Shown here: positions 20,468-23,194 of the stretch, piece by piece
Layout: each line of letters starts with the position of its first letter
How positions within the stretch are numbered: the stretch's first letter is position 1
Assembly (NCBI GenBank): GCA_030167865.1
Contig: JALAGF010000228.1
Coordinates: forward strand, 1 to 33,009
Direction: 5' to 3'
DNA length: 33,009 nucleotides
Origin: Craspedostauros australis
Lineage: Eukaryota
The notes under the pieces: model-generated
Told to the model about the DNA's origin: nothing
The model's input: the letters and a program-made list of their open reading frames with translations, nothing else
Databases searched by the model: none
Position numbers and translations under genes: made by a program

Positions 20468-21266
20468 ATGACGCGGCCATCACGTTCAACCCTGTTGCCC
20501 ACGCCATTTCTGCGGCTGTTTGCGATCATCGCTTTGTGCGTGTGGCGACCGTTGATCTTCCTCGCACCCATTTTGATTGCCTCCTATGCTTGCGGAAGCG
20601 CCAGCGCGAGTCCAAATGCCGCAGCCGCATCGCCGCAGAAGCTGGTGATCGGCGTGGACGGCGGCACAGAATCCATCCGCGCCTGCTGCTTCGACGCCAA
20701 GACGGGGTGCGTCGTGGGAAAGTCCTGCGCCGTGCCGTACGTCACGCATCATCCTCAACCGGGTTGGGCGGAGCAGGAACCGGCCGATTGGTATGCCAAT
20801 CTAGGACAGGCCGTGCGTGGCGCGTTGCTATCGTTGGAGCATGCGGACGGCGAATTCGAAGTCTGCGGGCTGTGCGTGGACACCACCTGCTGTTCGGTCG
20901 TCGCGTTGGATCGCGAGATGGAACCGCTGCGGCGTTGCCTGCTTTGGATGGATGCGAGATCTGCGCAGCAGACCAAAGAAATCCTCGAGACGTGCTGTGG
21001 CGATCCAGCGCTGGATATCAACTGCGGCGGAGAAGGGCCGTTGTCAGCGGAGTGGATGATCCCGAAGGCGTTGTGGATTCGGCAGACAGAGCCAGAAGTG
21101 TGGGAGAAGGCGACCACGATCTGCGAGTATCAGGACTACATCAACTACAAGCTCACTGGCAAGATGGTGGCAAGCTCCTGCAACGCGGCCACGCGATGGC
21201 ATTGGAATGGAAAGGAATGCATCGAGCAACCCCTACAAAACATCAACAAGAACAACAACAACAAGA

Positions 21267-21297
<31 letters not shown>

Positions 21298-23194
21298 CAA
21301 TATTGTTGACAATCAGACCCATCCTGGACGACCGCTGTCGTTGTATGCGAAATTGGGCATCCCAGAATTGGCAAACAAACTGCCGCAATCTTGTCTCGCT
21401 ATGGGCGATCTCGTGGGCCATCTTACTGATGTCGCCGCCAAGCATCTGGGCTTGCCAGTTGGGACACCCGTCACGCAGGGCGGTCCTGATGCCTTCGTTG
21501 GGATGATCGGCCTTGGGTGCATCCATCCCGGACAGCTGTGCCTCATCACGGGATCGTCACATTTGCATTGCATGGTGTCATCCAAGCCGACGACGGCTGC
21601 AGGAACATGGGGCGCTTACCAAGGCGCGCCCTTGCCAAGTCTCAACTTCGCCGAAGGTGGGCAATCCTCCACGGGATCCATCCTGAAATGGTGCAAAACG
21701 AAGATCTTCAACGACGACGTGGATTACAAAGAATTGGACGAGGAGGCGTCGAAGATACCGCCAGGTAGCGATGGCGTGATGGCCCTGGAGACCTTTCAGG
21801 GATCCAGGACGCCCATCACCGACCCATCCGCGCGTGGCGCCTTGCTCGGGCTGTCATTGTCGCACACGCGCGCGCACATCTGGCGTGCATGGATGGAAGC
21901 GGTGTGCTTCGGAACGCGAGGTTGCATCCAAGATGGGTTGGAGAAGGCGGGTCACGCCTGTTCCGAAATCATCATGGCGGGCGGCGCAACACGATCTCCT
22001 CTGTGGTTGCAAATGCACGCCGATGTCACAGGAAAGCCAGTGGTGGTGTGCGAGAATGCAGATGCGCCGCTCTTGGGATGTGCCATTCTCGCCAGCGTCG
22101 GAGCCGGCATTCATGATTCGGTCGATGCTGCCGTGGAAGCGATGGTGCGGCGTGTCGAACGTGTGGAGCCCGACCCCAATCACGCGCGACAGTACACGGA
22201 TCTGTACGAGAATGCGTACAAGCAGATTTCGCCGACGATTCAGCCCATCGTTCACAACCTCAGCAAGCTCCGAGGCGGTGCAAGTGGCAGTGGCGTCGTG
22301 AGCAACGAAGACGGTTCCGCCGTTTGTGCAACCGAATCGAAGCAAACGAAACGAACGAAGCACCTGACCATATCACCCTCGTTGCTGGCCTGCGATTGGG
22401 CCAGAATGGGAGAAGAGGTGGATCGGTGTCTTCGGGCAGGTGCTAGCCGTCTCCACGTGGATATCTTGGACGGTGTCTTCGTCGATTCGCCGGACGCATT
22501 CACCTTCGGGCCACAGATGGTGCGTGCTATTCGGCGTGCTTCCGACGCGAAGCATGCACAGAACGACGTGAATGGGGAGCAGGAACGACTCCATCTCGAT
22601 TTGCACATGTACGTCGAGCGACCGGCACGGTTCATTGATGCCATGGCCGACGCTGGTGCCGACACCTTCATCTTCCAATGGGAAGCCATTCCTGTGTCGA
22701 TAGATGCATCAGGTGATGGGATGAGTGGTGGATCAAGTCTGAGCAAACACGAGCAGAAGCAGAGGAACGAAGAGCGCACTCAAGAAGCAATCGGGATGGC
22801 AAAACGGATCATCGACAAGGGCATGGCCTGCGGCATCTGCATCAACCCCAGCACCAGCCTGGATGACATCCACCCCGTGCTCCAATCCGGCCTCATCTCG
22901 GTCGTCGATATTCTGGCCGTAAACCCCGGATTTGGTGGGCAGCAATTCCAAACCACCACGGTCGATCGATTGAGAGATCTTTGCGGTTTTCGGCGGCAGC
23001 ATCGTGCCGCATGCGGAGATTTTGCAATCATGGTGGACGGTGGCATCAATGCAAGCACCATTCAGCATGTCGCGGAGTACGCCGACATTGCCGTGGCAGG
23101 AACGTACGTATTCCGCCACAAGGTATCTCTGGAGGCTGGTATCAAAGATCTGCTGAATGGAGCGGCCATGGGATGGGAGGGAACGTCAATTTGA
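20468..23194 (+). CDS. Fusion protein: signal-peptide-like leader + FGGY-family carbohydrate (D-ribulose/pentulose) kinase + ribulose-phosphate 3-epimerase-like TIM barrel, 908 aa
   Basis: Single ORF. FGGY motifs from about 20639: VIGVDGGTESIRA, HPQPGWAEQEP.DW, DTTCCSVV, LLWMDARS, SAEWMIPKALW, QGGPDA, LITGSSH, FQGSRTP..DP.ARG, EAVCFGTR, AGGATRSPLWLQMHADVTG. RPE motifs from about 22364: ISPSLLACD, LHVDILDGVFV, TFGPQMV, DLHM, INPST, VNPGFGGQQF, VDGGIN, VAGT.VF. Confidence 0.93.
21245..21297 (+). repeat. In-frame (AAC)n/(GAC)n repeat encoding a poly-Asn/poly-Asp loop inside the kinase domain
   Basis: aacaagaacaacaacaacaagaacgacgacgacgacgacgacgacgacgac encodes NKNNNNKNDDDDDDDDD. Confidence 0.9.

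What the first reader, a model, noticed from the sequence alone, without database searches (positions are those of the whole stretch)
20468..23194. Pentulose kinase-epimerase fusion: a possible two-step D-ribulose salvage enzyme in one ORF
Seen: one uninterrupted 908-aa ORF joins a complete FGGY kinase (about aa 58-600) to a complete RPE-family barrel (about aa 633-908). Established: FGGY-family D-ribulokinases (human FGGY, yeast Ydr109c) phosphorylate free D-ribulose to D-ribulose-5-P, and RPE converts that to D-xylulose-5-P; in model organisms these are separate genes. Inference: the fusion couples consecutive reactions, for metabolite repair or pentose/pentitol uptake into the pentose phosphate pathway. 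I cannot tell from the sequence whether this fusion is already characterised in diatoms.
Basis: partly seen in the sequence, partly recalled or inferred. Interest (0 to 1): 0.75.

Follow-up and report, generated by a model that had tools for sequence, protein, structure and literature searches.

The report
Algal sugar kinase-epimerase fusion, rebuilt pocket
A real single gene, shared by many algae and already labelled in databases but never tested, joins a ribulose-type sugar kinase to a pentose-phosphate epimerase whose active site has been rebuilt, and in diatoms it carries a signal that probably sends it out of the cytosol towards the compartment around the chloroplast.

Summary
The 908-aa kinase-epimerase ORF is real and old: 117 of the 120 best homologs carry both halves. 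It occurs in diatoms, a pelagophyte, haptophytes, a synurophyte and green algae, and an Ostreococcus record is already named as this fusion. The kinase is not a member of the FGGY/Ydr109c subfamily (205.8 against a 408.7-bit cut-off). It belongs to an uncharacterised, mostly alphaproteobacterial sister clade of D-/L-ribulokinases whose genes lie beside RPE in 0 of 79 loci. The epimerase keeps the metal and catalytic tetrad but has lost all three conserved active-site methionines. This copy's epimerase half deviates unusually (6 of 58 near-invariant sites). Best reading: two-step salvage of a ribulose-type sugar just outside the plastid. D-ribulose is the likeliest named substrate; a modified pentulose is a serious rival. 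My ten literature searches found no paper on it.

The parts
20468..23194 (+). Whole ORF, 908 aa plus stop: signal peptide, FGGY kinase, linker, RPE-family barrel
20468..20608 (+). Predicted signal peptide, aa 1-47 (hydrophobic stretch aa 14-40, ending in ASA); +1 residue Ser, not the aromatic residue of stromal proteins
   Evidence: hydropathy heuristic, (no SignalP or ASAFind run); 99 of 124 parsable homologs have such an h-region
20609..20638 (+). Short Ser/Ala/Pro-rich spacer (aa 48-57); median 14 aa in 85 homologs; possibly a short transit-peptide-like region
20639..22270 (+). FGGY kinase of the AraB/RbtK superclade, aa 58-601; Asp64 and Asp341 (GlpK Asp10, Asp245) kept; specificity positions C141, C142, E195, D341, L366; Asn/Asp-rich insertion aa 255-283
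22268..22279 (+). LRGG motif (aa 601-604) at the point where stand-alone bacterial homologs end; R 115, G 118, G 115 of 121 sequences
22280..22363 (+). Disordered, poorly conserved linker, aa 605-632
22364..23176 (+). Divergent RPE-family barrel, aa 633-903: His663, Asp665, His713, Asp857 kept; the three canonical Met positions are Leu667, Tyr715, Leu816 (Phe, Cys, Leu in other diatoms); 3-residue insertion in the beta2 loop

Best explanation
An ancient algal two-domain salvage enzyme. The kinase half transfers the ATP gamma-phosphate to C5 of a free ribulose-type 2-ketopentose (D-ribulose is the likeliest named substrate). The RPE-derived barrel then inverts C3 through a metal-bound 2,3-enediolate (Asp665/Asp857) and gives a xylulose-5-phosphate-type product that can re-enter pentose-phosphate metabolism or be imported into the plastid. 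In green algae it works in the cytosol. In diatoms and other complex-plastid algae a signal peptide without the stromal aromatic residue sends it to the periplastid compartment or the ER lumen, beside the plastid envelope. Shown: fusion, conservation, folds, catalytic residues, N-terminal hydrophobic extension. Inferred: substrate, coupling of the two steps, compartment.
For: Fusion conserved in 117 of the 120 best hits and in Chrysophaeum, Prymnesium, Phaeocystis, Mallomonas, Chlamydomonas incerta and Ostreococcus tauri; ESM Atlas cluster of 353 members, 97% Eukaryota. The kinase groups with AraB and DarK against XylB, GlpK, FucK, RhaB and LyxK (SH 100) and shares their Glu and Asp specificity positions (positions from PMC3245297). 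The RPE tetrad is invariant where aligned (119/119, 119/119, 112/112, 110/110), and the four ligands are present in all 26 lineage representatives. 57 of 211 RPE columns are at least 95% invariant, so the half is under selection. Close bacterial kinases sit with ribose-type genes: RbsD/FucU mutarotase 20, ribokinase 11 of 79 loci. A search with TIGR01315 found no separate subfamily member in G000, so this gene could fill that role. An h-region is present in 99 of 124 homologs; +1 is aromatic in 2 of 85 (the rule is from PMC12136025); the three Mamiellophyceae-type rows lack it.
Against: Below every NCBIfam kinase and RPE cut-off. Of 255 full-length fusions, 219 have none and 36 have one of the three Met; none has two or three (the set is redundant). 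The Met are described as favouring epimerisation over isomerisation (PMC9978339). RPE lies within 8 kb of the bacterial kinase in 0 of 79 loci, so bacteria do not couple this kinase to RPE; one more distant Rubrobacter homolog has rpe about 6.5 kb away on the other strand. G000 has three canonical RPE loci with the Met motifs. The single 6PGD locus found shows no presequence, so no periplastid pentose-phosphate network is evident. This copy deviates at 6 of 58 near-invariant RPE sites against 3 of 199 kinase sites (Fisher p 0.005). Targeting rests on my own hydropathy heuristic.
Confidence: 0.5

Rival explanations
1. Same two-step logic, but the substrate is a modified pentulose. Candidates: 1-deoxy-D-ribulose/xylulose or a 1-methylthio analogue from SAM by-product salvage, giving DXP for the plastid MEP pathway; or a 3-keto pentitol from Rubisco misfiring, which a Met-free barrel could isomerise.
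For: Both pockets are changed together: kinase position 5 is Leu instead of Cys (68 of 79 bacterial homologs share C-C...L); the RPE Met positions become F/C, small residues, and invariant L. Bacterial homologs lie beside MtnK/MtnA in 15, a class II aldolase in 14, acetoin-dehydrogenase-like E1/E2 in 11-12 and DhaK/L in 15 of 79 loci, some on the same strand as MtnA (L267, L280, L294, L301). Five of seven plasmid loci examined carry the ThDP dehydrogenase genes. MtnK/MtnA/aldolase clusters dispose of 5-deoxyribose (PMC6079011). All named hosts are photosynthetic lineages.
Against: 38 of 79 loci show none of these neighbour sets, and many MtnA/MtnK cases are one Hyphomicrobiales group on the opposite strand. 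The same neighbours fit plain ribose/ribulose catabolism. The residue at the second Met position is protic only in diatoms (Cys) and Mamiellophyceae (Ser) and mostly Ala/Val elsewhere, which weakens the isomerase variant. The DXP and Rubisco links come from my own knowledge, not from a call.
Confidence: 0.25
2. In diatoms the fusion is a polyprotein: both enzymes share one signal peptide and are cut apart after import at (L)RGG, a copy of the ubiquitin C-terminus, by a deubiquitinase-like or secretory protease. This can hold together with either substrate reading.
For: RGG lies in the linker of 110 of 119 homologs (76 LRGG), as invariant as catalytic motifs, exactly where bacterial kinases end. 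It is duplicated in P0269 and shifted as EGG/SGG in three that lack it. RGG/SGG occurs in 7 of 103 N-terminal extensions. In 600 kb of G000, hydrophobic-RGG occurs in the N-terminal 100 aa of 3 of 47 signal-peptide-like ORFs against 0 of 181 others (p 0.008). DUBs cut precursors at RGG (PMC5487736).
Against: Only 6 of 24 more distant fusions have it. Gly-Gly after a long helix may be a helix cap. The G000 test is post hoc and small, one of the three ORFs is probably not a gene, and LRG alone is not enriched (2/62 against 6/251). The DNA pattern is not enriched genome-wide (242 against 298 for the control). The internal RGG of Toxoplasma PUBL is not cleaved.
Confidence: 0.18
3. The kinase is the working part. 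The RPE half is a slow, binding or regulatory domain, and in this species it is decaying.
For: Loss of the Met cushion; long branches in the RPE tree. This copy ties for the most deviations among 104 full-length homologs (6; 60 of 104 have none), including Phe667Leu, Cys715Tyr and Ser791Cys. Three canonical RPEs exist in G000.
Against: The tetrad and phosphate-binding motifs are kept across green and chromist lineages. Tyr at the same site occurs in another branch (P0249). A single Met change occurs in a natural trypanosomal RPE (PMC8756792). The deviations are single-codon changes that could be assembly errors; no reads were available.
Confidence: 0.15

Closest known systems
Ostreococcus tauri OUS43580.1 / XP_003081886.2 ('fushion of putative sugar/xylulosekinase and ribulose-phosphate...') and JGI 'ribulokinase/ribulose-phosphate 3-epimerase' records
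   Same: Same domain order, same kinase clade, same divergent RPE clade; annotation only
   Different: The green forms lack the signal peptide and the linker RGG; Ostreococcus keeps the first Met
D-ribulokinase RbtK/DarK and the TIGR01315 subfamily (human FGGY, yeast Ydr109c; Yersinia 3l0q/3gg4)
   Same: Best-scoring characterised relative (28.6%, 188 bits; Foldseek ranks 1-3); Cys-Glu-Asp at specificity positions 2-4
   Different: 205.8 against a 408.7 cut-off; one extra residue in the T-C-S-L-V segment (motif recalled) and Leu at position 5; far closer (45-49%) to uncharacterised proteobacterial kinases
L-ribulokinase AraB (3qdk)
   Same: Same superclade; highest NCBIfam score (283 bits); can phosphorylate D-ribulose (bioRxiv 2025.02.06.636802)
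   Different: Below the cut-off of 428; AraA beside the bacterial homologs in 0 of 79 loci
[quoted passage not shown]
   Same: Barrel, His-Asp-His-Asp tetrad, GGQ/DGG/AG phosphate loops
   Different: Both keep three Met; the fused domain keeps none or one, has a longer beta2 loop, and in diatoms Gln for the beta4 His; TIGR01163 score 134 against 212.6
Diatom consecutive-step fusions TPI-GAPDH, UGP/PGM, G6PDH/6PGDH (PMC2173943)
   Same: Two metabolic enzymes joined by a short spacer
   Different: Those join canonical enzymes; this fusion is not among the three listed and both halves are atypical

Membership tests
FGGY carbohydrate kinase family | FGGY_N and FGGY_C above the Pfam cut-off; catalytic Asp residues | tested here: met
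   92.8 and 139.4 bits; Asp64, Asp341
TIGR01315 D-ribulokinase subfamily (FGGY/Ydr109c/RbtK) | Score above the curated cut-off of 408.7 | tested here: not met
   205.8 bits
TIGR01315 D-ribulokinase subfamily (FGGY/Ydr109c/RbtK) | Same five specificity residues as DarK | tested here: not met
   C-C-E-D-L against [T]-C-E-D-C; three of five shared
TIGR01315 D-ribulokinase subfamily (FGGY/Ydr109c/RbtK) | Phosphorylates D-ribulose | not testable with these tools
   needs an assay
L-ribulokinase AraB | NCBIfam cut-off (428; 583) and ara operon context | tested here: not met
   283 and 213 bits; AraA in 0 of 79 bacterial loci
RPE family (PF00834) | TIM barrel with His-Asp-His-Asp metal and acid-base tetrad | tested here: met
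Canonical RPE (TIGR01163) | Three active-site methionines | tested here: not met
   Leu667, Tyr715, Leu816; 0 of 255 fusions keep two or three
Canonical RPE (TIGR01163) | Score above 212.6 | tested here: not met
   134 bits; insertions lower the score
Canonical RPE (TIGR01163) | Ru5P to Xu5P activity | not testable with these tools
   needs an assay
Periplastid-compartment proteins | Signal peptide followed by a non-aromatic +1 residue | tested here: met
   heuristic only: h-region in 99 of 124; +1 aromatic in 2 of 85
Periplastid-compartment proteins | Transit-peptide-like region long enough to separate it from ER or secretory proteins | tested here: inconclusive
   median spacer 14 aa, rich in Ser/Thr/Ala/Pro; ASAFind 2 not available
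Ubiquitin-type LRGG-cleaved precursors | Cleavage after Gly-Gly | not testable with these tools
   motif present and conserved; cleavage unknown

The most novel reading that the evidence does not exclude
Algae share an unrecognised repair pathway for a modified pentulose (1-deoxy or 1-methylthio ribulose feeding DXP, or a Rubisco misfire product). It is run by a co-evolved kinase and Met-free epimerase that sit directly outside the plastid envelope: the cytosol in green algae, the periplastid compartment in chromists. Diatoms deliver it as a polyprotein cut at a ubiquitin-like LRGG, a processing signal that may be used more widely in diatom presequences.
Probability: 0.12. Interest if true: 0.8.

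Novelty: new variant of a known kind. Interest (0 to 1): 0.46.

Why it matters
The fusion itself is an annotated but unstudied gene. The value lies in three testable points. (1) What metabolism the periplastid compartment of diatoms carries is an open question, and this is a conserved carbon-metabolism candidate across ochrophytes and haptophytes. (2) A natural RPE lineage without the methionine cushion tests the standard mechanism and may reveal a new substrate. (3) An invariant LRGG at the domain border suggests an undescribed processing signal. The gene has orthologs in genetically tractable algae (Ostreococcus, Chlamydomonas).

Tried and rejected
RNA evidence for this copy: no RNA holder was listed, so no reads were laid. 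Complex prediction of the two halves: no verdict. Assembly or gene-model artefact: rejected. Diatom-specific origin: rejected. Bacterial kinase+RPE operon as source of the fusion: not found (0 of 79; no RPE cluster among the 62 loci analysed of 79 fetched). Stand-alone form of the divergent RPE: the short hits read as fragments or exons of the fusion, then canonical bacterial RPEs at about 33-37%; not excluded. Single origin: the 16 fusion kinases form one side of a branch at only 38/89 and 33 fused RPE halves at SH 88, so it is neither shown nor rejected; chromist kinases are one clade (100/100). No donor lineage is claimed. The idea of a protic residue replacing the second Met (isomerase) was weakened. 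Genome-wide LRGGA DNA pattern: not enriched; of 30 loci only 4 had at least 100 open codons downstream, one being this gene and one a clear signal-peptide ORF, L146. The first tree attempt timed out. The paper defining the D-ribulokinase TCSLV motif was not retrieved, so that motif is recalled. Literature: ten searches returned no paper on this fusion or on an RGG motif in diatom presequences; the library lacks most subscription papers. The ASAFind 2 reference list of localised proteins has no hit for ribulose, FGGY or ribulokinase.

Full report
Observation. The ORF at 20468-23194 (+) encodes 908 aa without a break. Pfam finds FGGY_N, FGGY_C and Ribul_P_3_epim above their cut-offs. The AlphaFold2 model (mean pLDDT 89, pTM 0.68) has a kinase to aa 601, a disordered linker and a barrel from aa 634. 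Of the best 120 of 1023 homologs, 117 carry all three domains, and transcript-derived records span the junction. No RNA run could be examined for this copy. Its nearest named relatives are diatom proteins, so I take the genome to be a diatom's.

Distribution. Named carriers: Nitzschia, Pseudo-nitzschia, a dinotom, Chrysophaeum, Phaeocystis and Chlamydomonas incerta, Prymnesium, Mallomonas and Ostreococcus tauri. The ESM Atlas holds a 353-member, 97% eukaryotic cluster with this architecture, commonest phylum Chlorophyta. An O. tauri record is already named as a fusion of a sugar kinase and ribulose-phosphate epimerase, and JGI labels several 'ribulokinase/ribulose-phosphate 3-epimerase'. Two earlier scan notes describe the Ostreococcus copy. 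Chromist kinase halves form one clade (100/100). All 16 fused kinases tested fall on one side of a weak branch (38/89), and 33 fused RPE halves group at SH 88: one origin is plausible, not shown.

Kinase. It is below all NCBIfam cut-offs, including TIGR01315 (205.8 of 408.7) and ribulokinase (283 of 428). In a 98-row tree it falls in the AraB/DarK superclade, inside a group of uncharacterised, mostly proteobacterial kinases that are 45-49% identical, against 28.6% for DarK. The five specificity positions of PMC3245297 (passages read) read C-C-E-D-L, against [T]-C-E-D-C for DarK and G-S-E-D-C for AraB. Foldseek ranks the Yersinia 3l0q/3gg4 enzymes and L-ribulokinase 3qdk first. It therefore works like a ribulokinase by resemblance but is not a member of the FGGY/Ydr109c subfamily. 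G000 also has GlpK-, XylB- and GntK-like genes and a fourth FGGY gene, L012; a TIGR01315 search found no separate member. That L012 resembles plant plastid ribulose kinase is my recall and was not tested.

Bacterial context. In 79 loci of the closest clade (best 80 of 574 candidates, one duplicate of an earlier locus left out), RPE and AlsE occur in 0, RbsD/FucU mutarotase in 20, DhaK/L in 15, class II aldolase in 14, MtnA and MtnK in 13 each (15 with either), acetoin-dehydrogenase-like E1 in 11, ribokinase in 11 and SgcQ in 8. 38 loci carry none of the four tagged sets. Five of seven plasmid loci examined have the ThDP dehydrogenase genes. This points to ribose- or ribulose-type pentoses, possibly deoxy or methylthio derivatives (PMC6079011, passages). 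It gives no sign that bacteria pass the product to RPE.

Epimerase. His663, Asp665, His713 and Asp857 are invariant where aligned in the 121-sequence set, and 57 of 211 columns are at least 95% invariant. The three methionines described as stabilising the C2 oxyanion and favouring epimerisation (PMC9978339, passages; bioRxiv 2022.09.29.510120, passages; PMC8756792, passages) are Phe (118 of 119), Cys (111 of 112) and Leu (112 of 113) in the diatom-like set. Among 255 parsable full-length fusions, 219 keep none and 36 keep one (redundant set). E. coli Rpe and AlsE keep all three, and the canonical G000 copies show Met at every position read. Outside diatoms the second position is mostly Ala or Val: the pocket is rebuilt and probably larger. 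This copy departs from its relatives at 6 of 58 near-invariant RPE sites (including Leu667, Tyr715, Cys791) against 3 of 199 kinase sites; 60 of 104 homologs have no RPE departure and one other has six (p 0.005).

Targeting. Of 138 fusions examined, 124 had a parsable kinase start and 99 of these have an N-terminal hydrophobic stretch. With a crude (-3,-1) rule on 85 sequences, the +1 residue is Phe in 2 and mostly Ser, Ala or Thr; the spacer is a median 14 aa. Lack of an aromatic +1 residue marks periplastid rather than stromal proteins (PMC12136025, passages and part of supplement 1), but the short spacer leaves ER or secretory location open. The pelagophyte, haptophyte and synurophyte forms have the extension; the three Mamiellophyceae-type rows do not. 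The one 6PGD locus found in G000 shows no presequence (an upstream exon is not excluded).

LRGG. Directly after the last kinase helix, where bacterial homologs end, diatom-like fusions have R, G, G in 115, 118 and 115 of 121 sequences; the rest of the linker is variable. Only 6 of 24 more distant fusions have it, and 7 of 103 N-terminal extensions contain RGG or SGG. In 600 kb of G000, hydrophobic-RGG lay in the first 100 aa of 3 of 47 signal-peptide-like ORFs and 0 of 181 others; scrambled motifs gave 0 of 47 (p 0.008, post hoc). Against: no genome-wide enrichment of the DNA pattern, no enrichment of LRG alone, and an uncleaved internal RGG in Toxoplasma PUBL (PMC5487736, passages). A helix cap is the plain alternative.

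Literature. Ten searches found no study of this fusion. PMC2173943 (passages, section 9 part 1, supplement search) lists three other diatom fusions, and the supplement rows I saw were two ordinary RPEs. The Chlamydomonas RPE1 preprint counts two RPE genes. bioRxiv 2025.02.06.636802 (passages) supports D-ribulose promiscuity of AraB. PMC11528492, PMC5501833, PMC11976288 and PMC8142540 (passages) added nothing. Supplements of preprints were closed, and genome-annotation tables in papers I could not see may mention the gene.

Verdict. A real, widespread, annotated but untested fusion of two atypical halves. Best reading (0.5): two-step salvage of a ribulose-type sugar beside the plastid. Rivals: modified pentulose (0.25), RPE half not catalytic (0.15), and, independently of substrate, cleavage at LRGG (0.18). 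New variant of a known kind; interest 0.46.

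Noticed in passing
window 1243-3357 (+) and 30617-32299 (-): Two long ORFs without Pfam hits are distant paralogs (23.8% over 568 aa, E 2e-29); their C-terminal parts look like START-type lipid-binding domains (recalled, not tested).
   Followed up: partly
window 5226-7748 (+): TypA/BipA GTPase with a long Arg-rich N-terminal extension, probably organelle-targeted.
   Followed up: no
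window 11854-14832 (+): DUF6824 protein in pieces, probably several exons; a RING-finger gene ends at 19820; an alpha/beta-hydrolase-like gene spans about 26277-30141.
   Followed up: no
L146 (G000:C713) and L105:4997-5753: Signal-peptide ORFs with LRGG shortly after the signal: an unknown protein with over 500 open codons, and a trypsin-like precursor with LRGG in its propeptide.
   Followed up: partly
L226 (G000:C6212): A methionine-salvage dehydratase-like ORF directly followed on the same strand by an enolase-phosphatase-like ORF, possibly one spliced fusion (labels from sequence inspection).
   Followed up: no
L236-L301 and L228-L233: A modular, uncharacterised bacterial pentose island: ABC transporter, DhaK/L, this kinase, RbsD/FucU, ribokinase, class II aldolase, MtnK/MtnA, acetoin-dehydrogenase-like complex, SgcQ. 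It is in Sinorhizobium meliloti and offers a genetic route to the substrate.
   Followed up: partly
P0149-P0202, P0109: Many homologs break right after the TFGP motif or start at the first His of the RPE half, suggesting conserved intron positions in some diatoms.
   Followed up: no
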